From Scenedesmus sp. PABB004 (lineage: Eukaryota): a DNA stretch of 64,000 nucleotides. The stretch is from NCBI GenBank assembly GCA_014905635.1, contig CM026547.1, forward strand, positions 372,001 to 436,000, given 5' to 3'. Below are positions 42 through 64,000 of this stretch, piece after piece; within the stretch, counting starts at the first letter, position 1; the number at the start of each line of letters is the position of its first letter. Made by a program: the position numbers and the translations under genes. The notes beneath the pieces are model-generated. The model ran no database searches and had not been told where the DNA came from. It saw nothing but the letters and a program-made list of their open reading frames with translations.

Positions 42-111
42 GGCAGCGCAGCGCAGCGCATGCGCATGCGCGCTTTTGCGCGGCCACAGCGCTGTGCCGC
101 GGGCGGCGCAC

Positions 112-3100
112 CTCGCTGAAGGGGTCCAGCGTGTCCACCAGCTCCAGCTCCGCGTCGCCGCCGAGCGTGATCATCTGCGCCGCGCGACGCGCAGCGGGGC
201 GGCGGTCAGCCCGCGCGCTGTGCCTGCGCTGCGTGCGCGCGCGAGCGACGCGCCCCGCGCTGGCGGCGGCGGCGGCGCGCGGGCGGCCGCCGGGCGCCCC
301 GCCGCGCGCGCCGCGCCGCCGTGCTCAGCCGTGCGCGCGCCTGGTACATCTCCTTGAGCTTGAGGCTGATGGCGTTGAACCCCGCCATGAAGCCGTCCAG
401 CCGCGCCTTGCGCAGCGCGTCGTACCGCGACCGCACCTGGCCGCGGCGGGCCGCGGGCGAGGCGGGCGTTAGGTGTTAAAGTGCGAGGCGGGCGTGAGGT
501 GGAGGCGGCGGCGGCGCAATGCGTGCACGCGGGCGGGCGGGCGGCCGCACCTCGTCGCGCTCCTTGGTCGCCGCCGCGTACTCCGCCTGGCGCGCGGCAA
601 AGTCGGCCTCCTTCTCCCTGCGGCGGGCGGGCGGGCGGCGCGCGCGCGCGCGCGGCGGCGCGCGGCGGGGCCGCTTGCTCCCTCGCGACCGCGCGCGCGC
701 GCGCCCCGGCGCCGCCGCCGCCGCGCGGCCGCGGCCGCGTGGCTCTCCCTTGCGCGCTCGCGCCGGCGCACCGGTACGCAGCGATGGCGGAGAGGTCTGG
801 CGCCATGACGCGCAGCTCCTCCTCCAGCACCGTGACGCGGAAGAACGCCTCGGCCGAGTCCCCGGTCAGCGCCTCGGCCGGCACGGCGTACTCCTCGCCT
901 GCGCCCGGGCGCAGCGCGGGCGGGGGGCGAGCGCGAGGGCTGAGCTGCGTCGAGCCCCCGGCCGCGCCCGCCAGCGCCGCCGCCACCCACAGCGCCGCAG
1001 CGCCGCCGCCGCCCCCAGCGCCGCAGCGCCGCAGCGCCGCCGCGCCGGCGCGCACCCGGGATGTACTTTTGCAGCTCGGCCGCGTCGGCGGCGAGCGCGC
1101 GCGCGAGGTCGCGCGCGCTCTTGGCGAGGTCCTTGTTGGCCGCCTTGACCTTGTCCAGCGCGGCCTCCAGCTCCACCTCCACGCCGCGCACGATCGACAC
1201 CTGCGCGCGCGGTGCGGCGCGGCGCGGCGCGGACGCGAGTGTGTGGGCGGGCAGGCGGCGGCGCGCGTGGAGGGCCGGCGGCGGCGCGCGTGGACGGCCG
1301 GCGGCGGCGCGGCGCTGCGTGGCCGCACCTCCTTCTGCTTGGTGTCGCGCTTCGCCGCCGCCTCGGCGAGCACCGCGGCCTGCGCCGCCTGCGCGCCCGC
1401 GAGCTCCTCCTGGCGCGCCACGACGCCGCCCGCCTCGGCGGTGAGCGCGTCGAGCGCCTCCATGGCGGCGCTGATGTCGCGGCCCAGCTTCTCGACCTCG
1501 CCCGCTGCGTACACGGGCGCAATGCGCGGGGCGAGGCGGCGCGCGTCAGGCCCGCGTGTTTCTGGCCCGTGTGTTTCAGCCGCCGCGGGCAGAAACGAGC
1601 CCGCGGGGCCAACACGCTCGCGGCGCGCGCGCCGCACCCGACTTGGCGATGTCCTTGCGCAGCTTGTCCAGCTGCTTGCTCGCCGCCTTGAGCTGCACGG
1701 CCTTCTTGGTCGCGCCCGCGGCCGCCTCAGCCCGCTTGGCCTGCAGCGACGCGACCTTCTCGCGCAGCCGCCGCAGCGGCTCGCCGCCGGCGTTGTCAAT
1801 CTTGTCCTGCGGCGGCGCGGCGCGGCGCGTGGGCGCGGCGCGGCGGCACGGCGTGGTGAGCCGCATTCGCGAGGGCCCGCGCAGTGTCGCTGCGCACCGC
1901 GTGCCCCTGCGCCATCCACGCGCGCGCGCGCGCGCGCGCGCGCGCGCACGTGCGCACGCGGGCCAGCCCCCGGCGCACCTGCAGCGCTGCCACCTTCTTC
2001 TGAAGGCCCGCGCAGCTCGCGCGCAGCTTGGCCAGCTGCGCCGCCTCGGCGCTGAGCGAGGCGCTGAGCTCCGACAGCCGCGCCGCGTCGTCCTTGCGCA
2101 CCTCGGTGCCGGCCTGCGAGCGCAGCAGGCGCGGCCGCGGCACTGGGCAGGCGCCGCCGGGCGCGTGCCGCCGCTGCCGCGCCTGTGCAGCGGCCGCCCC
2201 CGCGCCGCCAGCGCCTGCGCCGCGCGGTGGCCGCGCACCTTGAGCTCCGCGAGGCGCGCCTGCAGGTCGGCGGCCTCCTCCTTCTTGGCCGCAGCCACCT
2301 GGGCCGCCTTTGGCGCGGCGACCTCGAGCCGCGCGAGCTCGCGCTCCGCGGCGGCGAGCTCCCGCTCCGCGGCGTCCCTGCGGCGCGGCGCGGTGTTGTC
2401 GGCGGGTCGCCTGGGTCGGCGCCGGCGGCCGACCATTGCGCGCGCAGGGGAGGGGAGCCCCCGCCCGGCCCTCCGCTCGCACCTGTCGGCGCGTGCCTGG
2501 CGCAGCTGCGCCTCGGCCGCCGCGAGCTGGCCCTCCGCGTCCGCGAGCTCCTTGGCCGCCGCCTTGGCGTCCACCGCCGGCCGCGGCGCCGCGCTGCCCA
2601 GCCGCATCAGCCCGCCGCGCGGCTTGCCGCCGCCGCCAGACATGGTGCCGCTCTCTGCGCGCGCGCGGCGGCGGCGGTGGCGGCGGCAGCGCGCTCAGCC
2701 CTCGTGCGCCCCAGCCCTCCCACGCAGGCCCGGCGCAGCCTTCCCCGCCAGCGCCTGGCCCCGCCCCGCCACGCACCGGCGATGAGCTGGCCCTGCAGCG
2801 TCACCACGCGCGCGAAGCGCCGGTCGCGGCTGCCGTACGCGATGCGGCTGGCCTGCTCCAGGCTGTCCGCCACGAGCGTGTTGCGCAGCGCATACCAAAA
2901 CGCGAGGCGCAGCTTCGGGTCGGACGGCCGCACGAGGTCAAACAGCCGCGGCACGCCTGCGCGGCGCCGGCGGCGGCGGCGGCTGAGCAGCGCAGCCGGC
3001 GCCGCGAGGGCGGCGGCGGCGGCGTGCCGCGGGGGCGGCGGCGGCGGCGCGCCGTGGGGGCGGCGGCAGCGGCGCCGCGCACCCTCGGGCGTGGCCACGC

Positions 3101-37093: not shown

Positions 37094-38425
37094 ATGACGC
37101 CACAGGCTGAGCAAGAGCTGACGCCGAAGCCGCGCGGGCTGCGCGGCTTCGGCGCCGCGCGGCGGCGCCTCGCCCGCCTGGCCAGCGGCGCCGACGCGGC
37201 GTGCCTGCGCCTCGCCCGGGGCGTGCTGCCTCAGCAGCTCCTGGACGATGTTGCCAGCGAGCTCGCCGCCGGCACAGGGGAGGTGGGGGCGGTGCGCGCT
37301 GCGGCGGCGCGGCGGCGAGGCCAACGCCGCCTGGGCGACGCCGCGCGCGGAGCGGCGCTCGTCGCGGGCGCGCTGGCGGGCGGCTGCGGCGCGGTGGCCG
37401 GCGCCAAGCGCGCCGCGCTCGCCGCCGCGACGCCGCTGCGGCTGCGGCGGCCGCTCTCGTTCGTCGTCAATGGGCTGATGATGCCGACGGCCCTCTGCGG
37501 CCCGCTCCTGGCGGCGCGCGTGGCGACGGAGGTCGGCCGGCGCGCGCTGCGCCAACTCGCAGCCGAGACGGCGGCCGCGGCGGCGGCGAAGCAGGCGACG
37601 CACGGGCACAGCACGCCCGCCGCAGAGGCGCCCGAGCAGGCGGCGGAGCAGCAGGCGGCGGAGCAGGAGGGGCTGGAGCAGCAGGCGCCGCAGCCGCCCG
37701 CGGCAGAGCAGGCGGCGCCGCAGCAGCAGGCGGCGGAGCAGCCCGCGGCAGAGCAGGCGGCGGGGCCTCGCGCCCCGCCGACCGCGCTGCCGCTGCCAGT
37801 GGTGGCGCCATCGACGCCGCCGGCGCCGGAGGGCGTGCAGAGCCACGCGCTGCTGGAGGCCGCGGGCGGGCAGCTGGCGGTGCGCACGGGCCGCGGGGGC
37901 GCGCCGGCGCGCGCGCCCGGCGGCGCGCCGCAGCCCGGCGCGCTGCCCGGGGCGTGCCGCGACGGGCCCGCGAGTCCGCTCAGCCCGGAGCTGGAGAGCA
38001 GGATTTGCCGGCTCCAGCGCCGGTGGTCCAGCGACTCGCCCGACAACGAGGCGTTTGCCGAGGAGGCGGTGCGCGCCGCGGCGTTGCTGCGTCCGCAGCA
38101 GCCGCCCGTGTTCAGCTGCCTGCCCGGCGGCAAGGGCGGCTGCCGCATCACCGCCGCCGCGGCGGCGGCGCGGGTCAAGGCCGGCGGCGCGGCCGGCGCG
38201 CCGCCGCCGCTCATCCACGCGCACAGCGGCGGCTGCGCGAGCAGCGACGGCTCGAGCGCGGGCAGCCCCATGGCCGCCGTCGCCGCGCGGCGAGCCACCG
38301 ACGGCTGCGGGCGGCAGGCGGGCGCGCCGCGCGTGACCGCGAGCCTCGACTTTGGTGCGGAACGGCGCGCGCTGCAGCAGCGCGCCTCGGCGCTGCTGCG
38401 GCAGCCGCGCGAGGGCGCGCCGTAG
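37094..38425 (+). CDS. Hypothetical intronless protein with hydrophobic N-terminal region and AAEQ-rich repeats
   Basis: Open frame from ATG 37094 with coding-like composition; no family recognised. Confidence 0.5.
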   Translation: MTPQAEQELTPKPRGLRGFGAARRRLARLASGADAACLRLARGVLPQQLLDDVASELAAGTGEVGAVRAAAARRRGQRRLGDAARGAALVAGALAGGCGAVAGAKRAALAAATPLRLRRPLSFVVNGLMMPTALCGPLLAARVATEVGRRALRQLAAETAAAAAAKQATHGHSTPAAEAPEQAAEQQAAEQEGLEQQAPQPPAAEQAAPQQQAAEQPAAEQAAGPRAPPTALPLPVVAPSTPPAPEGVQSHALLEAAGGQLAVRTGRGGAPARAPGGAPQPGALPGACRDGPASPLSPELESRICRLQRRWSSDSPDNEAFAEEAVRAAALLRPQQPPVFSCLPGGKGGCRITAAAAAARVKAGGAAGAPPPLIHAHSGGCASSDGSSAGSPMAAVAARRATDGCGRQAGAPRVTASLDFGAERRALQQRASALLRQPREGAP

Positions 38426-49352: not shown

Positions 49353-49849
49353 GGAGGAGCGCATGCTGTGGGGGCCCAGCTGCCACCGGCTGGCGCCGCC
49401 GGCGGCGGGCGCTGCAGGACGGCTGCCGCCGCTGCCGCCCGCCGTCACGGGGCGCGCGCGAGCGGCCGTGCGTGCAAGTCTCCGGGTGTCGGCGGCGACT
49501 GTGGGCGCGGCGGAGCGGGCGCGCGAGCTCAGAGAGCTGGACCGGGCCTGGAACCCCAGCGCGCCGCTCAAAAAACTGACAGCCGGCCGCGGCGGGCAGA
49601 CAGGGGCTCGCCGACGCGCCGGCAGCCCGCCCGTGCGTCCCCAGTCCGCCAACCACTCCCAGGCCTCGTGCAGCCGCCCGGGCCGCGCCCCCTGCGCCGT
49701 GCGCGCCGCCGCGCCTCGCCGCGGCTGCTGCGGCCGCCCCGCGGCGCTGTCTGCCCGGCCCCGGAGCTTTCCAAGCTTCGCCCTTGCGCTTGAGCAGCAG
49801 CGCCGGCCGCGGCGGGCCGCAGCGGCGAGGTGGCCGCACGACAGCGGCC

Positions 49850-51746: not shown

Positions 51747-54242
51747 ATGCGATCGCTGTTGCCGCCGCTGCCGTCGGTGCACGCGGGCGCCTACCCGCCG
51801 GGCGCGACGCTCAACGGCGGGCGCTACGTGATCGAAAGAAAGCTCAACAAGTGAACGCGCCTGCGGGGGCGCCTGGCGGCTGCTCGCTGCGCCGCCGGCG
51901 GCCGACCGCGCCCGCGCCCGCCGCCCGCCGCCCACGCTCGTCCGCAGGGGGGCGACGGCCGTGGTCTACGCCGCGCTGGACAAGCACACGGGACTCAAGG
52001 TGGCGCTCAAGGTGCGGCCGCGCCGCCCCGCGCGCTCTGCTCGGCCGCGCGGCGAGGTCCGCGCGCCCACCGCCCCGCGCGCCCGCCGCCCCGCGTGCCC
52101 GCCGCCCCGCGCGCGTGCGGCGCCGCAGGTGGTGCAGTGCGACACCAACAAGGTGCCCGTCAGCGTCGTGCGGCGCGAGGTCACGCTGTCGAGCAGCGTC
52201 GCGCACGAGAACATGGTCACGCTGCTCGACGTCTTCGCGGAGGGCATGGCGCTCATCATCGTGGTGCGGCCGCGCGCCGAGCTGAGCTGAGCCGCCGTGC
52301 GTGGCGCGCCGAGCTGAGCCGAGCCCTCCGCCGTGCGCGGCGCGCGCCCGAACAAAATGTCGACCCCCGCCGACCGCCGCCGCGGCGCGCCGCAGTGGGA
52401 GCTCATCAGCGGCCCGGACCTGCTCGAGCTGCTCAACGAGGCCGGCGGCCGCCTCGGCGAGGCCGCGGCGGCCTTCTACTTCGTGCAGGTCCGCTTGCAA
52501 CGCAGGGGGCTGGGCGGTTGCACCTGCCGGTTGCAGCACCCAGCGGCTGCGGGGCTGCTCGCATCCGCGCGCGCGCGCCACGCCGCCGCGCGCGCCGCCG
52601 CCGCCGCAGCTGCTGCGCGGCGTGCTGCACATCCACGCGACGGGCTTCTGCCACCGAGACATCAAGCCCGAGGTGAGCGTGCGCACTCCCCGAGGCCGCC
52701 AGCGCGTGGCCGCACAGCGCGCGAGCCGCACAGTGGCTCGCGCCGCCGCCGACCAGCAGCCGCGCCCGGCCTCGCGCGCACCGCAGAACTGCATGGTCAC
52801 GCGAGACACGAAGGTGTTAAAGGTACCAGCCGCGCGCGCCCCCACGCGCGGCGCCCGCCCCCACGCGCAGCGCCCGCCCGCCGGCGGCGGTCTCTCACGG
52901 CGCCCGCGCGCCCTGCCCACCTGCCCGGCGCGCAACGACCAGCTCATCGACTTTGGGCTGAGCAAGCACGTCGACAGCGTGGCGACGCTCGGCATCGGGA
53001 CCGTGGACTACATGGCGCCGGAGCTCGTGGGCACGCAGGTCAAGCAGCACCACGGCGGCGGCGCCCGGGCGCCGCGCGGCCCCGCGCCGCTGCCGCACGA
53101 GGCGCCGCCGCCGGCGCTCGCGGGCCGCGCCGCCGACCTCGCGGGCCTGGACGGCGTGCCGGGCCGCCTGCCGCCGCAGCCGCTCGCGCCCGGCGGCGGC
53201 CGCGGCGGCGGCGCCGTCGGGCGGGCAGCGTACGGCGGCGAGCAGGTGGGGCCGGCGCGCTGCGGCGCCGCCGGGCGGCGCGCACGCCGCCAGCCGGCTC
53301 ACGCCCGCTCGCCTTCCAGGTGGACGCGTGGGCCATGGGCGTGCTGCTCTTCCTGCTCGTCAGCGGCACCTACCCGTTTGAGGTGCGCCGCATGCTGAGC
53401 GCCGCACGCTGCGCGCCGTCCTGCAAGCCGCGAGCTGCGCGCCGTCCTGCAAGCCGCGCGTGCGCCGGTCTGGCGCACCGGCGCCGCGTGCCACACGCGG
53501 CGCTGCGCCCGCCGCCACGCGTGCAGGACCCCGCGCAGCCCAACAGCCTGGCCGCGACCATCCAAAACGTGCTCGCGGGTCGCCGCCGCGCGCTGCCGCC
53601 GCACATCGGCGCCGGCTGCCGCGCCGTGATCGCCGGCCTGCTGCACCCCGACCCCGCCGAGCGCACGTGCCTGCAGGCGCGCGCAAGGGCGGGGCGCCTC
53701 CCGCGCGCTGCAGCCTGCCGGCCAGGCGCGCGCACAAGGCCCGGCCCGCGAGCCGCACACGCGCGGCCGCCGCCGCCGCCGCGGCGCAGGACCTCGCGCA
53801 CGACTCCTGGCTGCGCGGCGCGGCTTCGTCGTACGCGGCGCAGCTTGGCCCCATTGGCGAGTGCTTCGACCCTGCCAACCCAGCCTGGATCCTGCCCCAC
53901 TTGCACGCTGCGGCCGCGGCGGAGCCGCCCGCGCCGCCCGTGGCGCCGCCGGTGGCGGCGCACGCGGGCGCGGCGCCAGCCGGCGACGGCGGCGGCGGCG
54001 GCGGCGGCGCGGGGCAGGGCGCCCCGCCGGCGCCCGCCGGGCGGGCGCAGCCGGCGGCGTGCTCGCCGGACGGCAGCAGCGACGCCACGGAGTTCATGGA
54101 CACGTTTGACGAGCAGCAGCAGCCGCCTGCGGCGCCGCGGCCGGAGCTCGAGCTTGCGCGGCCCCGGGGCGGTGCGGCGCTGCCCGCCGGCAGGCGTGGC
54201 GGCCTGTCCAGGCTCGCCGACCTCGTGCGGCGCTGCATCTAG
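51747..54242 (+). CDS. Ser/Thr protein kinase (CAMK/SnRK-like), about 10 exons
   Basis: GATAVVY, VALK, HRDIKPE|N, LIDFGLSK, GTVDYMAPE, VDAWAMGV, GTYPFE|DP, HPDPAER. Confidence 0.92.
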
Positions 54243-54751
54243 CGCGCGCGTGCTGCTGCCGCCACCCGCGCGCACGGCTGCGAGTTGAGGTTGCTGGCAG
54301 CGGGAGCGCCGGCCGCGGCGGTGGCTGTTGGCTGGGCGCCGCGCGGCGAGTGAACAGCACGGCGGGAGGTTGCCGCACACGCCCCCACCCCGGTTGGTCG
54401 CTCTGCACAAGTGCTGCGCTCGCGCGCATGCTGCGCTCGCGCGCAGCGCGCATGCGCCTGCGCGCGCACACACATCGATGCGCCGGGCGGGCCACTCGGC
54501 GGCCCTGCACCCGTGCAGCCGACCGCCACGGCCCCCGAGGCTGCGTCGGAGCGTGGCGGGTCTCACGCGCCAGCACGGGCCTCACACAAGATGCAGTGCT
54601 TGTGGTGCGCCGGGGCGTGCCGCGGCTCGCACCAAGGTTCGCATGCAGCAACAAAAGCGTCCACTGATCGAAGGGGATGCTCGAATGGGTGCCAGCCGAT
54701 ATAACACAATCAAATGGCCCCGCATGCGCGGCGGCGTTCGCGCAGCAGCGA

Positions 54752-57700
54752 TCACGCGGCGCACGCGGCGGCCTCCGCGGCGCTCGTCCCGACGACCACG
54801 TGCGGCGCCCTGCCGCCAGGCCAGGCCTCCATCGCCGCCTTGGCCTCGGCCAGGCCGGTGAGGCCGGGGTTGCCGTACACTTGCAGGCACCGCAGCTTGA
54901 ACGCGGGCCCCGCCATGAGCCGCCAGACGTCGGGCAAGGCGCCGGTGAACGCGTTTGCGCTCACGTCGAGCGTCACCAGCTCGCGCAGGCTCGCGAGCGC
55001 CGAGGGCAGCGAGCCGTCCAGGCGGTTGTCGGCCACGTCCAGCGCGGTCAGCGCCGTCAGGCGCGCGAGCGCCTCGGGCAGCGGCCCGGCGAGCGCGTTG
55101 CCGCGCAGGCGCAGCTCGCGCAGCTCCTCCAGGCCCGCCCACGCGAGGGGGAGGCCGCCCTCGAGCGCGCCGTTGGCGGTGAGATCCAGCACGCGGAGCT
55201 TCGCAAACGCCGCAAACGCGGGCGGCAGCGCGCCGGACAGGTTGAGGCGCGACAGCACGAGCACCTCCAGCCGCGCCATGCCCAGCAGGGCCGGGGCCGC
55301 CGCGGCCGGGCCCGCTGACGCGGCGCCGGCGGCGCCGCCGCCGGCGAACGCGCCGCCCAGGGCCGCCTCAACCGCCGCGAGCGCGCGCCGCGCCGCCGCG
55401 GCGGCGCCGGGGGCGCGCCCCGCGCTGCCGCCGCCGCCCGCGCGCGCGCCGGACGTCGCCGCCGCGAGCGCGGCGCGCCCCTGCGCGAGCGCGTCGGCGG
55501 CGGCGCGCCGCGCCGCCGCGGCGCCCGCCCACGCGGCGGGCAGGCCCCCGCTGATGGGCGCGCCGCTGACGACCAGCTCGGTCAGGCTCTTGAGCAGGCC
55601 CAGGCTCGGCGGCAGCTCGCCGGACAGCCCGGCGCAGCCCGCCGCGCGCAGCACGCGGAGCTGCTGCAGCGACGCCCAGCCGGGCAGGCCGCCGGTGAGG
55701 CCAGTGCACTGCGACACGTCCAGCAGCTGGAGGCCGGTGAGGCCGGCCCAGAGGCTCGGGAAGGGTCCGGTCAGCCCCGGGTTGGAGCTGAGGTCTAGCG
55801 ACTCCAGCATCCCAAAGCCCACCGCCAGCGCCTCGGGCAGCGGCCCCGACACGCCGACGTCGCTGACGTTGAGCGCGCGCAGGTGCGGGAGGCCCGCGAT
55901 CGCCGCCACCAGGTCGCCCAGCGCGAGGCCGCCGGACCCGCCGGCCAGCCGCACGCCCGCGCCGGCGAGGTCGAGGCCAGTCACGTGGTACGCCGCGTTG
56001 CACGACACGCCCTGCCACTCACGGCAGAAGCGCGGCGGCGTCTGGACGCCTGCGGCAAGTGGGCGGGCGGGCGGGCGAGTCAGTGGGCGTCGGCGGCGCG
56101 CGGGCGGCGCAGCGGCGGTTTCTGGCCCGCGGGGCGCGCGCGCGCGCCCCGCGCGCTCGCACCCGCGCCGCCGGGGTCGCCGCGCCAGGTCGCGACGCCG
56201 CCGAGCTTTGCGCCCGCGCCGCGCAGCGCCGCCGCGAGGCCGCGCAGCGCGGCGACCTCGGCGCTGCCGGCGACGCAGTCGGGCAGCGGCGGGTCGCGGA
56301 CGATGAGCACGCCGGGCGGGTTGCACCCGCTGATGCGCGTCCCTGTGAGTTCAATGTACGCGGCGCTGAAGTGGGACCACGAGGACGGCACCGTCCCGCT
56401 CACGTTGGTGCCGGTGAGCCAGAGCTCCATGTTGGCCGGCAGCGCCGCCGCGGCGCCCCACTCGGGCGGCAGCTGGCCCCCAAAGGGCTTGTTGTCGAGA
56501 AGATAGATGGAGGTGAGGTGCCGCAGGCCCGCAAAGCTCGCCGGGAGGCCGCCGGTCAGGTTGTTGGCTGGCGCGCGGTGGCGGGCGGGCGGGCGGGTGG
56601 GGTGGGCGGGGGCGGTGAGCGCGCCGCGGGCAGGCGGCGGCGGCGGCGCGGCAGCGCGGCTGCACGCGCGGCCAGGGCTCGCGCTCACTGCGCAGGTCGA
56701 GCTGCTCCAGCGCCGCCAGCTGGCCGTACTCGGGCGGGATGCTCCCCACCAGGCCGCACGCCGGCAGCGCCAGCAGGCGCAGGCGGGGCGCGGCGGCCGC
56801 GAGCTCGCGCGGCAGCGCGAGGTCGGCGCGCGCCGCCGCGGTGTCTGGCGAGTTGAGCTCGCACTGGTAGCACTGAAACTCCTGCAGCCGCGGCAGCGCC
56901 GCCGCGAGCGCGGGCAGGCCGCGCAGGGCGAGGCCCGCGTACGAGCCGTGCACGCCGGTCACAAACACGCCGTCGTCGACGAGCGAGAGCTTGATGACCA
57001 GGTTGACGTACGACGTCTCCCGGTACGTGACGACCGCCGACGTCTGGCCCGCGGGCACGAGCCGCCGCAGCGGCGCAAGGCCGCCGAGCCAGTCGGCGAG
57101 GCCGTCCCGGAACGCGGCGACCTCGCCCGCGTACGACGCGTCGGCCGGGAGCGGGCCCGCGGTCAGCAGCGGCGCGAGGCCGCGCAGCGCGGCGGCCTGC
57201 CGCGCCTCCACGTCCGCGCCGTCGCTCGCGCAGAGGCCGCGCATGGCCGTGCCGCTGAACGTCAGCATCGTGAAGGGGACAGCGGGGCACAGCCCGAGAG
57301 CGCCGCGTTGCCGTCGACGCGCAGCGTGGCGGCCCGGTCCCGCTGGCACCGCCAGCTCGGCGTGAAGTCCTCGCCCTGCATGGCGGCCGCGAGGAGGGGG
57401 GGGGGCGTGGGCACGGGCCGGAGGCGCAGCACGGGCAGGTCGCGCGCACACGGCAGCGCGGCGGTGCGACGGCGGGGGCGGCGCGGCGGCGGGGGCGCAC
57501 CAGCAGGTTGTTTCGGAGGTCGAGCTCATACGGCGGGTTGCAGGGGCCGGGCAGCTCGGGTAGCGCGCCCGACAGGCGGTTGTTGGCGAGGTTGAGCAGC
57601 GCGGGGCTCTCCGCGGTGTTCGTCCAGTTGGCGGCAAAGACGGCGGCCGGCAGCGAGCCCGCGATCCTGCGGCGCGGCGCGGCGCGGCGCGAGCGTGGGC

Positions 57701-60700
57701 GGGCGCGGGCGGGCGCCGCGGTGCCGCCGCCGCGCCGCCGGCGCGCGCGCGAGCGGGTTGCAGCCGGGCGCGGGGCGCGGGGCGCGCGCCTGTTGTTGTT
57801 GAGCTTGAGTGTGTTGATTGAGATGCCAGCAAACCACTCCGGCGGCAGCGGCCCGGCGATGCCGCAGGCCGCGTCGGCCACGACCTCGTCGCGGCCGGAG
57901 ACGTCCACGCGCGACAGCATGTGGCCGCCGCCGCCGGCGCTCCAGCCGCGCAGCAGGTTGCGCGGCAGGCTGCCCGTGAGGCAGTAGTGGCTGATCGTCA
58001 CGTCCTCCAGCGCGCCCAGCGCGCCGAGCTGGGGCGGCAGCGCGCCGTCGCGCACGACGAGGCGCAGCTCGCGCAGCGCAGGCAGCTGCTGCAGCGCCGC
58101 CGCGAGCGCGGGGCCGAGGCTCGGCGCCGCGGCGCGGCCGTCGGCGCGGCCGCGCACGCCGCCGCGGACGTCGACGTGCAGCTTTGCCACGTCGCCGGCC
58201 TCGTTGGGCTCGATCAGCAGCTCGCCGACCCACGGCGCCTCCCAGGCGGTGCCGCCGCGGCGGCGGACCACCACGCTCTCCAGCACCGCCATGTAGCCGT
58301 ACTGTATCGGCCAGTCGAGCGTGAGCGCGGTGATGGACGGGTCGACGGCGGCGAAGAGCGCCGCGACAGCGCGCGCCTGCGCGGCCTTGGGGTCGCGCAG
58401 GTACGCGACGCGGTCAAACTCGCCCGGCTGCGGTGGTCGGTGGCGCGGGTGGTGGGTGGAGGGGGCGGCAGCGTCAGCCCGGCCACGCCGGGGGCGGCTC
58501 GCCGCGGGCGGCGCAGGCGGGTGGGCGGCGCGCCGCGCCGCGGCCGCGCGCCTGGTCGGCCTTGGAGATGTTGCACACGCGCAGCGTCGTGCCGCGCGGC
58601 AGCGTGGCCGGGAGGTCAACATCAAAGTAGTGCAGCGTGCACCCCACGGTGCCCGGGCCGACGCAGCGCGCGCCCCCGCCGCCGCCGCGCAGCTGCTCGG
58701 ACAGCGCGGCCGCGCTGCAGTTGGTCGCGCTGGCGCGGCCCGCCGCGTCGTACGCGAGGCACTCGAAGAAGGGCCACGCCGCCGCGTCGGCGCCGCGCGG
58801 CGGCGCCACGTCGCGCGTCGCGGCCTTGACGACGGTCAGCACGTCGAGCAGGTCCGCCGCGCTCTGCGGCTTGGGCAGCTTGTACGTGATGGCGCGCGTC
58901 GCGCTCCCGCCGCGCGCGCGCCCGGCGGCGCGGCCGAGCGCGTCCTGGTTGCGCAGCACAAAGGACCGCAGGTTGAGGCCAAGGGCGTCCGAGATGGAGG
59001 CGATGTGCTCGCGCCGCGCCGCGATGCGGTAGCGGTAGCAGTCGGGGGACAGGTTGAACAGGTCGGCCTTCGGCCGCTCCAGCTCGAGCGGCAGCCGCGG
59101 CCGCCACGGCGCGGTCTCGTGCGGGTCGAGCTCGCCGCCGGGCGCGGGCACGCACGAGACGCCAAACGTCTGGTCGGGCACGCCCACGCCGGCAACGCCC
59201 ATCTTGATCTGGCGCGCGGGCGGGCGCGCCGGGCGGCGGCGTGAGTGCTGCCGCGGCGGCGACCGCTCGCACACCCACACACGCACCTTGAACAGCCCAT
59301 CCGCGGTCACGCCGCGGTCGCTGTTCTTGGTGGTGTCGCTGTCGCCCCAGCTGTTGAGAATGGTCCAGGTGAAGTCCGCGTTGTCATAGCCCACGATCGT
59401 CACCGCGTGGCCAAAGAGCGGCGCGGCGGTGCGGTTATATTGATAAGGCGGCAGGTCCACGCCGCGCCGGGTCCGGGCCGAGGCGTTGAACTGCACCGGG
59501 AAGTCGTCGTTGATGCTGCGGGGGGCGCCGGCGACGGAGCGGACGGAGCGGCGCACGCCCGCGGCGCGCGTGAGCACCGACCGCGCCGCGCGCGGCCGCG
59601 GCCGCGGCCAGGGGCGGCCACCAGCCCCGCCGGGCGGGCGCGCGCGGGCGCTCACGTGATGCGGCTGATGACGGCGCCGTGCATGCGGATGTGCTGCTGG
59701 ATCTGCCAGAAGGTGCTCAACGAGCGATAGGAGCACTTGAGCCAGGGCTGCGCGTCGGTGAACGCGCTGCACTGCCCGCCCGCGGCCTGCCGGCAGCTCG
59801 GCTCCCACTGCGTGACGTCGGGCTCCTTGGCCACGTCGTTCAGCAGGCCCGCCGCGTCGGCGCACTCGGCCGGGCGGATGAGCTGCGGCGCCTCGTCAAC
59901 AATAAAGTTCAGCGCCTCCTGGATCGTCCACCCCGTCTTGCAGGTGCGGCCGCCTGCGGCGGGCGCGGGCCGCGGGCGCGGGCGCGTCGCGGCGCGTCGA
60001 TTTGGCGGCGCGCTGCGCGCTGCGCGGCACGCTGCGCGGCCCCTCCAGCCACCACGCCGCGTGCGTGGCCGCACCCTTGGAGCAGTAGTAGAGCGACTGC
60101 GCGCTCACGTCCCAGCGCTGCACGCTGCGCAGCGCGGCGGGGGCCCGCGCCGCGGCCTGCGCGGCCGAGATCTGCATCGCCGCCGCGATCGCCTGCGCGA
60201 CGCAGCTGTTGCAGTCGCCCTGGTCGCGCGCCTTGGGCAGCGGGGAGGTGAGGAAGGTCTTGGGCGAGCCGGCGATGTAGTACATCTGCGGGCGCGGCGG
60301 CGCCAATGCGGCGGCGGCGGGGCACGAGCGGGGTGGGCGGCGGCCGGGCGCGCGCCGGAGCACACGAGCCGCCGCGGCGCGTGCGCCGCCGCCGCACGCA
60401 CCGACATCTGCAGCTGCTTCATCTCGTCGGCGCTGGAGAAGCCGCTGCCGGAGCCGCCCTTGCCGAACGATCCGCGCCCGGTGGACGTTGACGAGAGGCC
60501 GACCTGGCTCTCAAACGCGCCGAACGCGCCCGCCGCGCCGGCCTCGCCGATCGCAAGCTGCTCAAAGCTGATCTCCAGGCCCTGGCCGGCTGCTGGCTGG
60601 AGGAGCGCCGCCGCCGCGAGCGCCAGCACGAGCAGCAGCGGCGCCGCCGGGCGGCAGGCGGTGCCGCCAAGCGGCGCCGCTCGCCGTCCAGCGAGGACCA

Positions 60701-60701
60701 T
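54752..60701 (-). CDS. Large secreted multidomain protein: signal peptide, papain-like C1 cysteine peptidase, LysM-like segment and several extracellular-type LRR blocks
   Basis: Signal LLLVLALAAAALLQPAAG; RDQGDCNSC (60202..60222), GHAVTIVGYD (~59410), ILNSWG (59344..59355); plant-type LRRs (LDLSSNPGLTGPFP, LRGNALAGPLP, VADNRLDGSLP); LRR cap FCREWQGVSC. Confidence 0.85.
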
Positions 60702-61141
60702 GCGGGCAAGCCTGGGCGTCCGTCGCGCCCCGCGGCGTCGGCTGCGCCGCCCCAGGGAGGCCGTGGCAGCGACGCGACTGCTACCCGGGTCAGGGCCTCC
60801 CGCCTCGCGGTGGCTGCAGCCCGCGAGCCAACGCCGCAGCTCGGGCACTGATCGGTGCCGCTCTAGGACCTTGTTGAGCGGTCGCGGCGGCTCCGCGCCT
60901 GCTGCGGCACGAGTGCACGCCCCCCGCCCCGGCGCGCGGCCCTTCAGCGCTGAGAGGCCGGGGGAGGCCAGTTCGACCGCGTTGGCCGGGCGGCGGAGCG
61001 GCGGCGGCCCACTTGCTGCGCGCGGCGTCACCAGGGGCCGGCGGCGCGACGCGCGACGCTTTCTCCGCTCCTTCCGCCCGCGGCGTGCGGGCCGCAGGCC
61101 TGCGGCGGGCGCCGCCTGCGGCACGCTCCGCCGCCCCGGCC

Positions 61142-64000
61142 TCACGCGTCGCAGAGGTTGAGCGCGTCGAGCACGTCCTCCATCGTGGCGGAGTAGTCGC
61201 CGTGGCCGTTCACCAGGCGGCTGAGGTTAACGTTCTCCACGCCCGGCACGTCGACCTGCCAGATGCCTGCGGCCTGCGTCCAGATGCTGCTGGAGGAGTG
61301 CACGCGGTACCTGCGGCGCACAGGCGGTCGGGCGCGTGGCGCGTGTGACGTGGCCGCGCCGCGCGGCCCGGCGCGCGCTGCGCTGCGCGGCGCGGCAGCC
61401 CCGCAGCTCACAGCAGGCCCAGCGTCCAGTCGTTCACCGAGTAGCCATTTATGAGCCGCCCCGCGACCACGGCGCGCGCGGCGCACCAGCGGTCGGGCCT
61501 GGCGGCGCCGCCCACGGGCGGCAGCACGGGCCGTGAGCGCGGGGCGAGCCGCGGGGGCGCGCGGCGAGCCGCCGGGGCGCGGCGCGGCGCGGCGGTGCGG
61601 CGCGCGCCTGCAGCTGAGCGGCGCGCCCAGCAGGACCGCGTTCTCGACCACGCCGCGCGCGCCGAGGCGGTGCAGCTCAAGCAGGCAGTGGAAGACCAGG
61701 CGGGCGCCCATGCTGCAGCCGACGAGCGTCACGGGCCGCCCGCCGTGGCAGCCCTGCGCGAGCTGCATGGCCAGCATCTTGCCCGCCGCCTGCGCGCGGC
61801 GCAGCGCGACGAGCCACTTGCTCCCAAAAGCGACCTTCAAGGCTGTCGTCACCGTCATGGGTATTGCGAGCGCGCCGACCAGGCCTGCGCGGCGCGCGGG
61901 CGGGGCCGTGGGCGGGTGGGGAGGGCGGCCCCGCGGCGCCCGCGCCCGCGGCAGCGGCGGTCCCGCCACCCGGCCGCGCGCTGTGCGCGCTGTGGACCAC
62001 CGCGGCGCCCGCACCGGTGTAGAGGAAGGTCTGGATCGTGCGCGTGGTCACCTGGGTGAGCGCCTGCTGCGCGAGGAACGTGCCGAGCGCGCCGCCCAGC
62101 TCCTGCGCGCCGGCGGCGGCGCCGCGGCGGCGGCGGCGGCGGCGCGGTCGGCGGCGCTGCCGCGCGGCGCTCGCGCGCGGGCGCGCACTGCGCCGCGCAG
62201 GCTCTGTGCAGGCTCCTGACCTTGAGGCACTCGAGCTCCCAGACGAGCGCGAAGCGGTCGCAGTCGCGGCTCGGCAGAGTCGCCCAGGGCGCCACAAAGT
62301 CCTCCACGGCGGCGATGCAGCAGCCGTTGGCCGCGATCGTCAGCGCGAGCCGCGTCTCGCCGTCGGCCGCGTGCTGCGGGTTGACCGGGGTCGGCAGGAG
62401 CGGCACGAAGACCGGCTTGGGCGGCGGCTTGCGCGAGAACAGGCCGCCCAGGCCACGAGGCGCGGGCGCCGCCGCCGCGGCGGGCTGCTGCTGCTGCTGC
62501 TGCTCCGGCGGCTGCTCCGGCGGCTGCTCCGGCTGCTGCTGCGCCGGCGGCGGCGACGACGCCTGCTGCAGCGGCCGCTCCTGCTGCTCCTGCTGCTCCG
62601 GCGCGGCAGCCGCCCCGGGCGTGCCGCCGCCGCCGGCGGCCGTGGGCGTCGCGGGCGTGCTGCTGGGGCTGCTGACGTACTCGCAGCGAAACTGCTCCGC
62701 GTCCTCGTCGCTGTCTGCGTTGAACGCGTCGGCGTTCAGCTCGAGCGTCTTGGAGCGCACACGCGCCGGGCGCGCGTCCTCAGCGTCCTCAGCGTCCTCG
62801 GCGTCCTCGGCTGCCGCCGGCGAGGCCTGCAGCACGGCCGCGCCGCCGCCGCCGCCGCCGGCCGCGGCGGCGGGGCTGGGCCCGAACAGCCGCTGCAGCA
62901 GGCCCTGCTGGGCCGGCTGCGGCTCTCCCTGCACGCCGCCCTGCGCCGGCGCGCCCGCGCCGCCGGCCGGCGCCGGCTGCTGCCGCTGCGCCTGCGCCTG
63001 CGCCTCCTCCTCGAGCGCGGCGGGGCCCTTGCCGTCGACGTAGATGCTCTGCCCGAGGTCATAGAACCCAAACTGAGTGATCTCGCCCCACAGCCGCCCG
63101 GCGGAGCCGCCGCCCACGGACGCGCCCCACGCGCCAAACAGCCCCGTCACGGCCGCGGTGCCCGCGGTCGACCCCGCCGCGCCCGCCACGGCCGCGGCGG
63201 CCGCCGCGCCGCCGTGCACGAGCGAGACCGCCGCACCGAGGCCCGCCGCGATGGCTGGGGCCGCGAGACCGCCCGTTATTGCCAGCAGCGCACCGCCGCC
63301 CACGGCGGCGGCGCCGACCTTGAGGTACGCCAGCGAGCCGCTGCTGCCGTACCGCGGCTGATGGGTGGCCGGGTCGACGTTCAGCGCCTGGCTGGCCCAC
63401 ATCTGCTCAAAAGCGCGCACCTGCCCCCACGGCACGCGCAGCCAGTGCGCGACGCGCTTGACCGCCACGCGCGCGCGCGCGTCATACAGCTGCACGGCCG
63501 CAACTCCCTCGTCCCGCGCGCCCGGCGCGGCCGGCGCCTCCGGCCGCGCCTTGGCGGCGGTGCCGCCAGTGCCGCTGCCGCTGCCGCCGCCGCCGCCGCC
63601 GCCCGTGGCAGGGCCAGCCGCCGGCTCGTCCGCGGGAAACCAGGCCGCCGCCGGCCGCGGCGTGCTGCCGCTGCCGCTGCTGTCGGCGCGCGCCGCCGCC
63701 TCCGGCTGCTCGCCGCCGCCGCCGCCGCCCGCGCTCGCGCCGCTGCCGGCGCGCGCGAGGCGCCGCGCCGCGGCCGCCGCCGCGGCGGGCGCCGACGCGG
63801 GCTCGACCGCGGCCGCCGCAAGGAGCAGCGGCTCGAGCGCCGCGTCTGTGTTGGCGGCGATGCAGCCGCCGATGAGCTCGTACAACGCCAGCACCGCCTT
63901 GTGGCTGGTGCTGTGCGAGAAGTGCTCAGCCGGGGCAAAAGTGGCAGCGGGGACGATGCTGCCCTCGTCCGCCTCGCGCGGCAGCACGTCGACGGCCGCG
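61142..64000 (-). CDS. DUF726 / TMCO4-like alpha/beta-hydrolase-fold membrane protein; 5' end off-window
   Basis: YDARARV, VGGGALLAITGGLAAPAI, ALVWE, GRPVTLVGCSMGARLVFHCL, VENAVLLGAP, VAGRLINGYSVNDWTL, GVENVNLSRLVNGHGDY. Confidence 0.9.

What the first reader, a model, noticed from the sequence alone, without database searches (positions are those of the whole stretch)
54752..60701. Secreted papain-protease + LysM-like + multi-LRR protein: candidate algal extracellular sensor-effector
Seen: one spliced gene joins a signal peptide, a C1 cysteine peptidase with the oxyanion Gln and a complete Cys/His/Asn triad (QGDCNSC, GHAV, NSWG), a LysM-like segment and at least three plant-type LRR blocks with a CxxWxGVxC cap. 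No C-terminal TM or kinase is visible, and no obvious I29 propeptide. Known: in land plants, LysM (chitin/peptidoglycan binding), extracellular LRRs and papain-like proteases (Rcr3 acting with the LRR receptor Cf-2) are separate immune components. Inference: this alga fuses them into one cell-wall protein that may recognise and cut microbial or wall targets, or self-process. I know of no characterised protein with this architecture.
Basis: partly seen in the sequence, partly recalled or inferred. Interest (0 to 1): 0.8.

Follow-up and report, generated by a model that had tools for sequence, protein, structure and literature searches.

The report
Secreted algal papain-LysM-LRR fusion protease
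This is a real ten-exon gene for a secreted papain-type protease joined to an interrupted sugar-binding-type (LysM) module and three leucine-rich-repeat blocks; it belongs to an unstudied gene family of Scenedesmus-like green algae, and its function is still unknown.

Summary
On the minus strand, 60701..54752, ten exons give a 1629-aa protein. It has an N-terminal hydrophobic leader, a conserved ~60-aa segment, and a divergent C1A peptidase with Gln122/Cys128/His306/Asn324. A LysM-type module follows, then three plant-type LRR blocks. There is no TM segment, kinase or I29 propeptide. The LysM is split by a ~100-aa insertion. Exon 8 needs one extra base in a C-run (57274-57279) to stay in frame.

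The fusion is not a gene-model artefact. The spliced protein aligns end to end with Scenedesmus sp. PABB004 and Tetradesmus obliquus proteins. It also aligns with a 1619-aa protein that fills an intron-free 5271-nt contig. Peptidase_C1 matches 14 of 14 aligned relatives. A relative's model matches cathepsin B, cathepsin S and ficin folds.

The immune sensor-effector reading is untested. I favour an extracellular protease docked or steered by its LysM and LRR modules. Six literature searches found no account of this architecture; relatives sit in databases as hypothetical proteins. No RNA evidence was obtainable.

The parts
54752..60701 (-). Whole coding span, ATG 60701 to TGA 54754-54752: 10 exons, 1629 aa when read through one frameshift
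   Evidence: end-to-end alignment with relatives
60402..60701 (-). Exon 1 (aa 1-100). Leader peptide is aa 1-39 (60701-60585), with a conserved A-x-G/A|QG junction. Then a conserved ~60-aa Gly/Ser-rich N-terminal segment (60584-60402), possibly a short pro-region.
   Evidence: Only strongly hydrophobic stretch of the protein (KD 2.03, window of 19). The junction aligns in P0001, P0002, P0004, P0005 and P0086. No I29 hit at E<=1. No signal-peptide predictor was available.
60075..60285 (-). Exon 2: start of the C1 peptidase, with Gln122 (60222-60220) and catalytic Cys128 (60204-60202) in RDQGDCNSCV
   Evidence: Pfam Peptidase_C1 16.7 bits on this exon alone; motif conserved in relatives
59656..59953 (-). 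Exon 3: CxGG region plus a family-specific Cys-rich insertion in the L-domain (aa 171-269)
59287..59515 (-). Exon 4: His306 (59409-59407) in FGHAVTIVGYD; Asn324 (59355-59353) and Trp326 in LNSWG
   Evidence: Pfam Peptidase_C1 18.0 bits; alignment to a cathepsin L-like protein, 3qj3
58552..59208 (-). Exon 5: end of the peptidase (to about 59152) and the split LysM module (59040-58570). Strand 1 and two helices are aa 403-440. An inserted alpha/beta Cys-rich subdomain lies at about aa 446-546 (58911-58609). The last LysM strand is TLRVCN, aa 554-559.
   Evidence: AF2 model pLDDT 82.4. VIA-align top rows are LysM domains, aligned range 55..215 of the exon. Profile against PDB sequences gives only Ecp6 and MltD LysM. 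Pfam LysM in 1 of 18 and 3 of 14 relatives.
58428..58551 (-). Intron 5, GC-AG (CAG|GCGCGC...CAG)
   Evidence: Junction gives ISKADQ|PGEFDRVAY, collinear with P0086 ISSA--PGQFEKVAY
57790..58427 (-). Exon 6: divergent cap and first repeats of LRR block 1
57667..57789 (-). Intron 6, GC-AG (same donor CAG|GCGCGC)
   Evidence: Junction restores the LRR consensus LKLNNNRIAGSLP
57501..57666 (-). Exon 7: LRRs of block 1
   Evidence: Pfam LRR_1 E 0.019
56689..57375 (-). Exon 8: end of LRR block 1 (GCAPLS C-cap), then cap and first repeats of LRR block 2
57274..57279 (-). Frameshift site: the run TCCCCT lacks one base relative to the conserved reading frame
   Evidence: Frames change from 1 to 0 here. 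With one N added, the reading GCAPLS.FTMLTFSGTAMRGLC aligns without a gap to P0086 GCVPLGSFTRLSYSNTGITGLC.
56163..56567 (-). Exon 9: LRRs of block 2, its GCNPPG C-cap, and the first half of the LRRNT-like cap of block 3
   Evidence: Pfam LRR_1 E 0.0012
54752..56049 (-). Exon 10: CREWQGVSC cap (56026-56000) and LRR block 3 of about 12 repeats. An Ala/Gly-rich island lies at aa ~1369-1455 (55537-55259). The C-terminal tail has no TM segment.
   Evidence: Pfam LRR_1 2.5e-20 and LRR_8 1.8e-17. 72-nt DNA periodicity. The island is also present in P0086, P0002 and P0077. Hydropathy.

Best explanation
The locus is one nuclear gene of a very GC-rich (about 79%) green alga. It belongs to a lineage-specific, multi-copy family whose named members so far all come from Scenedesmaceae. 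It encodes a secreted, non-membrane protein of about 1630 aa with these parts in order: a leader peptide; a short conserved N-terminal segment, possibly a pro-region; a divergent but catalytically complete papain-family (C1A) peptidase; a LysM fold carrying an inserted Cys-rich subdomain; and three blocks of plant-type 24-residue LRRs.

Shown: the gene structure, the domain order, conservation of the catalytic residues, and conservation of the fusion in other algae.

Inferred: it acts outside the cell as a protease whose LysM-derived and LRR modules dock it on, or choose, its targets. These could be wall or matrix glycoproteins and glycans of the alga itself (remodelling, daughter-cell release) or foreign surfaces. 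This resembles how bacterial LysM modules target NlpC/P60 cysteine peptidases to the wall. The frameshift in exon 8 is most simply a homopolymer error of the assembly.
For: Gene model: ten exons with all junctions confirmed by gap-free alignment to four full-length relatives.

The spliced protein gives single BLASTP alignments: q38-1507 with P0001 (36.5% over 1548 columns) and q37-1578 with P0002 (35.1% over 1622 columns).

P0086 is 1619 aa with the same order of parts. Its Peptidase_C1 scores 52.5 bits at residues 128-324, and its LRRs run to residue 1503. It lies on a 5271-nt contig, so its 4.86-kb frame is uninterrupted, as expected of a transcript.

Fragments P0013, P0022 and P0030 each bridge a domain boundary.

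Peptidase_C1 matches 14 of 14 aligned relatives and LRR families match 9 of 14. Gln, Cys, His and Asn-Ser-Trp are invariant or nearly invariant in alignment A2.

The AF2 model of P0005 (46% identical to the window protein over q38-408) gives 196 PDB matches at E<=1e-3. All 50 listed rows are papain-family enzymes, with cathepsin B first.

LysM: the AF2 model of window exon 5 has pLDDT 82.4. In VIA-align, 7 of the 50 listed rows have LysM in the title, including T. thermophilus NlpC/P60 LysM (Z 5.1, rmsd 1.7 A over 48 residues) and Volvox chitinase LysM (Z 4.8, rmsd 2.1 A over 49 of 49). By my own knowledge, many other rows align through their LysM modules. The family profile hits only two PDB sequences at E<=10, and both are LysM proteins. 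P0090 has a short insertion and a Pfam LysM hit on profile positions 1-24.

Secretion and lack of an anchor: the only strongly hydrophobic stretch is N-terminal, and there are 33 Cys and 10 N-x-S/T sequons.

Family expansion: several paralogues occur in T. obliquus and in Scenedesmus sp. PABB004. Locus tags 005004, 005008 and 005009 lie on one contig.
Against: No expression evidence exists for this locus: no RNA run was listed.

The spliced window protein could not be given to Pfam or to the fold predictor. On the window itself, Peptidase_C1 is seen only as two sub-threshold exon hits (16.7 and 18.0 bits against a cut-off of 20.7), and LysM is not seen at all at E<=1.

The LysM structural matches have low Z (at most 5.4), below the level the tool calls safe, and Foldseek found nothing at E<=1e-3.

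In the window copy the usual G-D-T of the first LysM loop reads R-E-H, and the insertion sits in the loop that normally helps bind glycan. Glycan binding is therefore doubtful.

The P0005 model is only moderately confident (mean pLDDT 60; 70-88 in the core). Triad geometry could not be measured because no coordinates are returned.

Several database relatives are visibly over-extended gene models: PD40, PIG-U and GNAT parts are fused upstream. Predicted proteins alone are therefore weak witnesses of a fusion.

The frameshift could be real. Nothing tested speaks to the biological role.
Confidence: 0.6

Rival explanations
1. Extracellular immune sensor-effector. The LRR and LysM parts recognise microbial or grazer-derived ligands. 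The tethered protease then cuts the invader, a decoy or the protein itself to start a response. This would be a one-protein version of the plant Rcr3 / Cf-2 pairing.
For: The LRR blocks are closest in sequence to plant immune and developmental LRR ectodomains (GSO1, FLS2, PEPR1, PGIP). The family is expanded and partly tandem in Scenedesmaceae, as recognition families often are. LysM modules serve glycan perception in plants (CEBiP and LYR4 appear among the fold matches).
Against: There is no signalling part: no TM segment and no kinase. No data exist on induction or ligands. Plant-type LRRs are generic binding scaffolds that also occur in structural wall proteins (LRX and PGIP). Lineage-specific expansion equally fits wall or matrix proteins.
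Confidence: 0.15
2. The gene is a recent pseudogene, or encodes a truncated product. The frameshift at 57274-57279 would be real, so translation stops 4 codons later (TGA at about 57264). The product would be a ~870-aa protease-LysM-LRR block 1 protein, and the rest would be untranslated.
For: The assembled sequence needs one added base to keep the conserved frame. In 79% GC DNA long open frames arise by chance, so the open downstream frame alone proves little.
Against: It is the only defect in 4.9 kb of coding sequence. It lies in a C-run, a typical site of assembly error. The 763 downstream codons still show LRR consensus and about 37-41% identity to relatives, with no further breaks. Catalytic residues are intact.
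Confidence: 0.2
3. Gene-model artefact: the protease-LysM half and the LRR half are neighbouring, separately transcribed genes that only look joined.
For: The link between exons 5 and 6 depends on a non-canonical GC-AG intron. Without splicing there, the frame ends 25 codons later. Some relatives are short (P0004, P0005, P0089, P0090: 434-549 aa). Database models in this family contain obvious merges upstream.
Against: The exon 5/6 junction reproduces a conserved sequence found uninterrupted in P0086, P0022, P0030 and P0067. P0089 and P0090 run on into the cap of LRR block 1 before losing similarity, so they look truncated rather than naturally short. There is no start codon with a leader peptide for a second gene. 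The order is collinear in at least five full-length relatives.
Confidence: 0.05

Closest known systems
Uncharacterised Scenedesmaceae proteins: Tetradesmus obliquus OEZ86_005009, OEZ86_008070, OEZ85_007523 and others (UniRef name 'Peptidase C1A papain C-terminal domain-containing protein'); Scenedesmus sp. PABB004 proteins labelled 'MSL1', 'RCH2' or hypothetical
   Same: Same order of parts from the leader to the last LRR block. About 35-41% identity over about 1450-1600 aligned columns. Same catalytic motifs, same split LysM, and the same island in LRR block 3.
   Different: Low identity, so the window comes from another, much more GC-rich lineage. The T. obliquus members of 1174-1369 aa are shorter. 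Several deposited models carry foreign N-terminal parts. None has a tested function, and the names MSL1 and RCH2 are the submitter's labels.
Papain-family (MEROPS C1A) peptidases: cathepsin B, L and S, ficin, and plant PLCPs such as Rcr3 (the Rcr3 link is recalled, not tested)
   Same: Gln/Cys/His/Asn and the NSWG motif are in register. A relative's model matches C1A structures.
   Different: No I29 propeptide, only a ~60-aa conserved N-terminal segment. Val replaces Trp after the catalytic Cys. A ~50-aa Cys-rich insertion sits in the L-domain. Pfam scores are low (29-52 bits in relatives). About 1250 further residues of LysM and LRR follow the peptidase.
Bacterial LysM + NlpC/P60 cell-wall endopeptidases (e.g. 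Thermus thermophilus, PDB 4uz2 / 4xcm)
   Same: A papain-fold cysteine peptidase joined to LysM targeting modules. The LysM of 4uz2 is among the best structural matches (Z 5.1, rmsd 1.7 A over 48 residues).
   Different: A different peptidase family (C40, not C1). There the LysM is N-terminal, repeated and uninterrupted; here a single LysM follows the peptidase and carries a ~100-aa insertion. No LRRs. This is an analogy of working principle, not homology of the whole protein.
Plant extracellular LRR proteins: LRR-RLK and LRR-RLP ectodomains (FLS2, GSO1, PEPR1), PGIP, LRX
   Same: 24-residue plant-type repeats (LxxLxLxxNxLxGxLP), a CxxWxGVxC N-cap on block 3, and an island within a block. A profile of the whole family alignment matches these PDB ectodomains, E 4.7e-137 for GSO1 and 2e-31 for PGIP.
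   Different: No transmembrane segment or kinase. There are three separate blocks, and two have unusual long caps. Pfam LRRNT_2 is only E 0.15 in P0086. The LRRs are fused to an enzyme.

Membership tests
Peptidase C1 (papain family, Pfam PF00112) | Profile match above Pfam's gathering score (20.7 bits) | tested here: inconclusive
   For the window, only single exons could be scanned: 16.7 bits (exon 2) and 18.0 bits (exon 4), each below the cut-off. Relatives pass: P0005 46.3, P0086 52.5, P0002 36.3, P0004 30.0 and P0001 29.0 bits. 14 of 14 members of A2 match at E<=0.1. The window protein is 42-46% identical to P0004 and P0005 over about 390 residues.
Peptidase C1 (papain family) | Oxyanion Gln, catalytic Cys, His and Asn in the conserved motifs and order | tested here: met
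   Gln122, Cys128, His306 and Asn324 (plus Trp326) are present. They align with those of cathepsin L-like 3qj3 and of bacterial-type C1 proteins P0027 and P0073. They are invariant or nearly invariant in A2.
Peptidase C1 (papain family) | Two-lobed papain fold | tested here: met
   Tested on relative P0005, not on the window protein. Foldseek gave 196 PDB matches at E<=1e-3. All 50 listed rows are C1A enzymes (cathepsin B 2.6e-7, target-normalised TM 0.55). Model pLDDT is 60 overall and 70-88 in the core. Distances within the triad were not measurable.
Peptidase C1A zymogens | I29 (cathepsin propeptide inhibitor) prodomain | tested here: not met
   No I29 hit on exon 1 at E<=1, nor in 15 relatives at E<=0.01. 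A different conserved ~60-aa segment precedes the enzyme.
LysM (Pfam PF01476) | Profile match | tested here: not met
   Window exon 5 gives no family at E<=1. Among relatives: 1 of 18 members of A1 at 1.2e-4; 3 of 14 members of A2 at E<=0.1, best 0.015. All are below the gathering score where a score was shown (P0090 15.4 against 20.9). This bears on membership by sequence only.
LysM | beta-alpha-alpha-beta fold | tested here: met
   The AF2 model of window exon 5 (pLDDT 82.4) has strand 57-61, helices 69-76 and 80-94, and strand 208-212. VIA-align matches LysM domains over 48-49 residues at rmsd 1.7-2.1 A, with the aligned range running from about 55 to 215. Caveat: Z is 4.8-5.4, low in absolute terms, and the fold is interrupted by an insertion of about 100 residues.
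LysM | Glycan (GlcNAc) binding through the strand1-helix1 and helix2-strand2 loops | not testable with these tools
   The window has R-E-H where relatives have G-D-T. The insertion occupies the second loop.
Plant-type extracellular LRR | LRR profile matches and a 24-residue period | tested here: met
   On exon 10: LRR_1 2.5e-20, LRR_8 1.8e-17, LRR_4 4.5e-16. Direct DNA repeats are spaced 72, 72 nt. Eight regex matches to the plant consensus. The family profile matches plant LRR ectodomains.
Plant-type extracellular LRR | LRRNT_2 cap (PF08263) | tested here: inconclusive
   The CREWQGVSC motif is present, but the cap is split by intron 9 and could not be scanned whole. The relative P0086 scores only E 0.15, 12.8 bits against 20.7.
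LRR receptor kinase / receptor-like protein | Transmembrane segment after the LRRs (and a kinase for RLKs) | tested here: not met
   No hydrophobic stretch beyond the leader: the best other window scores 1.54 and lies in the Ala-rich island. No kinase family on any exon. The stop codon follows 29 residues after the last LRR-like segment, and the next gene is convergent.

The most novel reading that the evidence does not exclude
The family is a ligand-gated or ligand-guided extracellular protease. Binding of a foreign or self glycan or peptide by the modified LysM and the three LRR blocks would position, release or activate the tethered papain-like enzyme. Scenedesmus-type algae would then carry in one polypeptide the protease-plus-LRR logic that land plants split between Rcr3-type proteases and Cf-2-type receptors. 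It could be used for defence or for grazer- or pathogen-triggered wall remodelling and colony formation.
Probability: 0.12. Interest if true: 0.8.

Novelty: new variant of a known kind. Interest (0 to 1): 0.5.

Why it matters
Papain-like proteases, LysM modules and extracellular LRRs are central parts of land-plant surface immunity and wall biology, but there they work as separate proteins. Here a whole algal gene family has them covalently joined and conserved across genera, with the catalytic residues kept. That gives a tractable case for two questions: how such modules cooperate, and what extracellular proteolysis does in coccoid and coenobial green algae (wall turnover, autospore release, colony formation, defence), about which little is known. 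The interrupted LysM, whose inserted subdomain gave no clear structural match here, is also of interest for how glycan-binding folds are remodelled. Because relatives exist in Tetradesmus obliquus, a culturable alga, the ideas can be tested.

Tried and rejected
- **Whole genome:** none is held for this window, so paralogues and copy number in this organism could not be counted.
- **Cluster lookup:** Sources and names came instead from the search for homologous proteins.
- **Word-index search:** a search with exon 5 among longer proteins found nothing, although the exhaustive search did. That blank was a sensitivity limit.
- **RNA evidence:** no RNA holder was listed.
- **Sequencing run X1:** the one listed run is a freshwater metagenome with a 0.05 share of the sampled words. 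When laid, it gave a few short contigs (99-190 nt) with 1-4 other letters each, plus many spurious GC-rich partial matches and joints. None was informative at the frameshift site.
- **Foldseek on the exon 5 model:** no match at E<=1e-3. The top rows (Y-family polymerases, acetone carboxylase) had TM of about 0.2 and I discount them.
- **Inserted subdomain:** residues ~105-197 of exon 5 gave only Z 3.3-4.3 matches to unrelated alpha/beta proteins.
- **ESM Atlas:** best scores were 0.77 and 0.76, below the level that counts. One cluster had LysM on 12% of members. This is a lead only.
- **Stray Pfam hits** on single exons (Fer2_3, TilS, Peptidase_C39_2), all below cut-off, were dismissed.
- **Alternative intron:** a short intron to avoid the frameshift (donor after TGGCG, acceptor at TTCAG) was considered and rejected. 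It would delete residues that are conserved in relatives.
- **Ala/Gly-rich stretch:** I considered an extra intron in the stretch of exon 10 and rejected it, because relatives have an island there too.
- **Earlier findings of this scan:** nothing by place, words or sequence.
- **Literature:** six searches found no paper on a C1 + LysM + LRR protein. I saw search listings and the starts of abstracts only and opened no paper. Subscription journals are not covered.
- **Profile against PDB:** the whole-family profile was swamped by LRR matches and told nothing about the peptidase.
Full report
**Setting.** The window is uniformly very GC-rich: 0.75-0.83 in all 32 two-kb windows. Every frame is therefore open for long stretches. 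A stop-to-stop list for 54200-61200 gave 79 ORFs of at least 40 aa on both strands, so open frames alone mean nothing here. Pfam scans of other coding-looking segments found ordinary eukaryotic nuclear genes. These include SMC hinge and head, an alpha/beta hydrolase, NAC, two ClpP exons, a GT1 glycosyltransferase, Alg14, an F-box protein, a SAP-domain protein, a protein kinase and DUF726. None is functionally linked to the finding. The kinase gene ends at 54242 on the plus strand, convergent with our gene. The DUF726 gene ends at about 61142 on the minus strand, upstream of it.

**Gene model.** On the minus strand I joined the frame segments that look like protein, using splice signals and frame bookkeeping. 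The result is ten exons:

| Exon | Coordinates |
|---|---|
| 1 | 60701-60402 |
| 2 | 60285-60075 |
| 3 | 59953-59656 |
| 4 | 59515-59287 |
| 5 | 59208-58552 |
| 6 | 58427-57790 |
| 7 | 57666-57501 |
| 8 | 57375-56689 |
| 9 | 56567-56163 |
| 10 | 56049-54752 |

- The nine introns are 78-140 nt long. Seven are GT-AG.
- Introns 5 and 6 both begin CAG|GCGCGC, which is a GC donor.
- The ATG at 60701 is the first in its open frame, and the stop is TGA at 54754-54752.
- The product is 1629 aa.
- Exon 8 changes frame inside the run TCCCCT (57279-57274), so one base must be added to continue.

**Is the model right?** An exhaustive HMMER search with exon 4 through exon 5 used window:58552-59514:-. The 78-nt intron between these exons is in frame and free of stops. 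The search found 76 proteins at E<=1e-3, 30 at <=1e-10 and 3 at <=1e-30.

- The spliced protein, kept inside scripts, gives single BLASTP alignments with P0001 (q38-1507, 36.5% over 1548 columns) and P0002 (q37-1578, 35.1% over 1622). It gives long ones with P0003 (q147-1159), P0020 (q339-1198) and P0035 (q353-1159).
- In a MAFFT alignment with P0086, P0002, P0001 and P0077, identity is 542 of 1472, 594 of 1486, 591 of 1438 and 578 of 1423 aligned pairs.
- No exon junction coincides with a gap. The two GC-AG junctions reproduce conserved sequence: ISKADQ|PGEFDRVAY against ISSA--PGQFEKVAY, and the LRR consensus LKLNNNR|IAGSLP.
- At the frameshift the window reads GCAPLS.FTMLTFSGTAMRGLC against P0086 GCVPLGSFTRLSYSNTGITGLC, again without a gap. 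Both sides of the break are thus conserved coding sequence, and the assembled DNA lacks one base.
- I cannot tell an assembly error from a recent mutation. It is the only defect in 4.9 kb and sits in a homopolymer, so I put about three to one on an error.

**One gene or two?** Named relatives come from three organisms:

- *Scenedesmus* sp. PABB004: P0002, P0077, P0078, P0001, P0083.
- *Tetradesmus obliquus*: P0003, P0079-P0085, P0087, P0090, P0091.
- *Scenedesmus* sp. NREL 46B-D3: P0089.

Their precomputed Pfam lists combine PF00112 with LRR families. Predicted proteins can be wrong, and several of these clearly are at their N-termini: PD40, PIG-U and GNAT parts are fused upstream.

The better witness is P0086. 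It is 1619 aa with a leader, Peptidase_C1 at 128-324 (52.5 bits) and LRRs to residue 1503. It lies on a contig of only 5271 nt. Its 4.86-kb frame is therefore uninterrupted, which in an intron-rich lineage is what an assembled transcript looks like; that step is my inference. Short fragments also bridge the boundaries:

- P0013 spans peptidase to LysM.
- P0022 and P0030 span LysM to LRR block 1.

P0089 and P0090 (549 aa) run into the cap of LRR block 1 before losing similarity, so they look like truncated models rather than natural short forms.

**The peptidase.**

- Exon-wise Pfam scans of the window gave Peptidase_C1 at 16.7 bits (exon 2) and 18.0 bits (exon 4), each under the 20.7 cut-off. 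The joined protein could not be submitted.
- All 14 members of alignment A2 match Peptidase_C1 at E<=0.1 (best 9e-14).
- The window protein is 42-46% identical to P0004 and P0005 over about 390 residues.
- Gln122, Cys128, His306, Asn324 and Trp326 sit in RDQGDCNSCV, FGHAVTIVGYD and LNSWG. They align with the same residues of a cathepsin L-like protein and of ordinary C1 proteins P0027 and P0073. In A2 they are invariant or nearly so.
- An AlphaFold model of P0005 built on A2 has mean pLDDT 60 (70-88 in the core).
- Foldseek gave 196 PDB matches at E<=1e-3. All 50 listed rows are papain-family enzymes, headed by cathepsin B (2.6e-7, target-normalised TM 0.55).
- The family differs from textbook C1A in three ways. 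Val follows the catalytic Cys instead of Trp. A ~50-residue Cys-rich insertion lies in the L-domain. There is no I29 prodomain (no hit at E<=1 on exon 1).
- Instead, a ~60-residue segment (GQGL..S.EQLG.GEA....F..FE... GGRG.GGRG ... LQ) is conserved between the leader and the enzyme. That it acts as a short pro-region is my guess.

**The LysM-like segment.**

- Pfam sees nothing in window exon 5 at E<=1.
- Relatives read C-Y-x-Y-x-V-x-x-G-D-T-x-A-S-I-x-x-x-F-G-x-D-x-x-x-F-V.
- An 18-sequence alignment (A1) gave an AlphaFold model of the window exon with pLDDT 82.4.
- Foldseek found no PDB match at E<=1e-3.
- The exhaustive VIA-align search was dominated by LysM domains:

| PDB | Protein | Z | rmsd / aligned residues |
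|---|---|---|---|
| 4lzh | L,D-transpeptidase | 5.4 | 4.7 A / 59 |
| 4s3j | SleL | 5.1 | 3.1 A / 55 |
| 4uz2 | T. thermophilus NlpC/P60 LysM | 5.1 | 1.7 A / 48 |
| 5k2l | Volvox chitinase LysM | 4.8 | 2.1 A / 49 of 49 |

- Further rows were OsCEBiP, AtlA, intimin, Ecp6, MltD, Mg1LysM and LYR4. Seven of the 50 listed rows carry LysM in the title. By my own knowledge many others align through a LysM module.
- These Z values are low in absolute terms, and the tool warns that values under 8 can be chance. A 48-residue fold cannot score high, however, and the aligned range is telling. It runs from about residue 55 to 215 of the exon while covering only about 48 residues.
- Strand 1 and the two helices are residues 57-94, and the closing strand is 208-212 (TLRVCN, after LPRGT, like the L.xGQ.L.I end of LysM). 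Between them sits a ~100-residue alpha/beta, Cys-rich subdomain with no clear structural relative.
- Independent sequence evidence agrees. The A1 profile hits only two PDB sequences at E<=10, and both are LysM proteins aligned on the same stretch (Ecp6 0.068, MltD 0.2).
- Pfam LysM matches 1 of 18 members of A1 (1.2e-4) and 3 of 14 members of A2 (best 0.015).
- P0090 has a much shorter insertion and matches LysM profile positions 1-24 only.
Whether the module still binds glycan is open. The window copy has R-E-H for G-D-T, and the insertion fills a loop that normally contacts the ligand.

**The LRR part.**

- Exon 10 scores LRR_1 2.5e-20, LRR_8 1.8e-17 and LRR_4 4.5e-16.
- The DNA shows the 72-nt period of 24-residue repeats.
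- Eight sites fit the plant consensus L..L.L..N.L.G.LP.
- A profile of the whole family alignment matches plant LRR ectodomains: GSO1 4.7e-137, FLS2 1.1e-109, PGIP about 2e-31.
- There are three blocks:
  - Block 1 is aa ~566-866 and ends in GCAPLS.
  - Block 2 is aa ~867-1148 and ends in GCNPPG.
  - Block 3 runs from aa ~1166 to ~1594.
- I count about 7, 7 and 12 repeats by eye.
- Only block 3 starts with the CxxWxGVxC cap (CREWQGVSC, 56026-56000). Blocks 1 and 2 have longer caps that are poorly conserved in the window.
- Block 3 contains an ~85-residue Ala/Gly-rich island. Relatives have an island at the same place, so it is coding sequence and not an intron.
- Hydropathy shows one strongly hydrophobic stretch, at residues ~15-40 (2.03). 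The next best (1.54) is the Ala-rich island.
- There is no kinase and no membrane anchor. With 33 Cys and 10 N-glycosylation sequons, the protein looks secreted. No signal-peptide predictor was available.
- The leader's end, A-x-(G/A)|Q-G, is conserved in five relatives.

**What it does.**

- *Shown:* a conserved, multi-copy family of leader-bearing proteins in which a catalytically complete C1A peptidase is followed by a remodelled LysM and three LRR blocks.
- *Inferred:* an extracellular protease whose non-catalytic 1250 residues bind something and thereby place or steer the enzyme.

I favour targeting to the alga's own wall or matrix, or to particles that touch it. The nearest working analogue is the bacterial LysM-NlpC/P60 wall endopeptidase, which also heads the structural match list.

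There is no signalling part and no expression or induction data. Plant-type LRRs are generic binders found also in PGIP and LRX wall proteins. Lineage-specific expansion with tandem copies (T. obliquus locus tags 005004, 005008 and 005009 on one contig) fits either reading.

**Novelty.** Six full-text searches found no paper on this architecture. I saw search listings and the starts of abstracts only, and subscription journals are not covered. Relatives are public but unstudied; they carry names such as 'hypothetical protein', 'Peptidase C1A papain C-terminal domain-containing protein', 'MSL1' and 'RCH2'. I rate it a new variant of a known kind: a secreted papain-like protease with an unprecedented set of targeting modules. 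It is of moderate interest until a function is shown.

**Limits.**

- No genome is held for the window.
- No RNA run was listed.
- The one metagenome run (X1) gave only a few short near-identical contigs and nothing at the frameshift.
- The spliced window protein itself could not be scanned or folded. Window-level statements therefore rest on single exons and on relatives.

Noticed in passing
window 57274-57279 (minus strand, exon 8): The run TCCCCT lacks one base relative to the frame conserved in all full-length relatives. This is either an assembly homopolymer error or a recent frameshift.
   Followed up: partly
window 58428-58551 and 57667-57789: Two of the nine introns use the same non-canonical GC donor (CAG|GCGCGC). 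Both junctions are confirmed by homology. GC-AG introns may be common in this extremely GC-rich genome.
   Followed up: partly
window 7255-8019 and 11836-12600 (or beyond): Inverted repeat of at least 765 nt, 99% complementary, arms 3816 nt apart; its length was limited by the region I scanned. It duplicates, in opposite orientation, what looks like the last coding exon of the alpha/beta-hydrolase gene whose N-terminal exon lies at 10035-10505 (identical peptide LLEHVSRLRHLPCIAVQGVADLV... on both strands). Either a real local inversion-duplication or an assembly artefact.
   Followed up: partly
P0088 (Scenedesmus sp. NREL 46B-D3, 1456 aa): A distant relative of the peptidase part (E 8.4e-21). 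Its precomputed Pfam list combines Peptidase_C1 with PF07699 and a subtilase (PF00082), which is another unusual protease fusion in the same algal group.
   Followed up: no
P0001, P0077, P0080, P0083 (deposited gene models): Their N-terminal parts carry unrelated domains: PD40 repeats, PIG-U, GNAT acetyltransferase and PF03982. The family's leader peptide lies internally, so these look like upstream genes merged by gene prediction.
   Followed up: partly
Tetradesmus obliquus locus tags OEZ86_005004, 005008, 005009: Three family members lie on the same 5.1-Mb contig with near-consecutive tags, which suggests a tandem array.
   Followed up: no
window 30312-33293 (-), 47862-49412 (-), 37115-38422 (+), 33882-34871 (+): Long segments (330-994 codons) with strong coding-like codon-position bias but no Pfam family at E<=1e-3. 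They may be lineage-specific genes.
   Followed up: no
window 59152-59953 region of the peptidase (aa ~190-250): The family-specific Cys-rich insertion in the L-domain lies roughly where cathepsin B carries its occluding loop, and cathepsin B heads the fold matches. Whether it restricts the active-site cleft was not tested.
   Followed up: no
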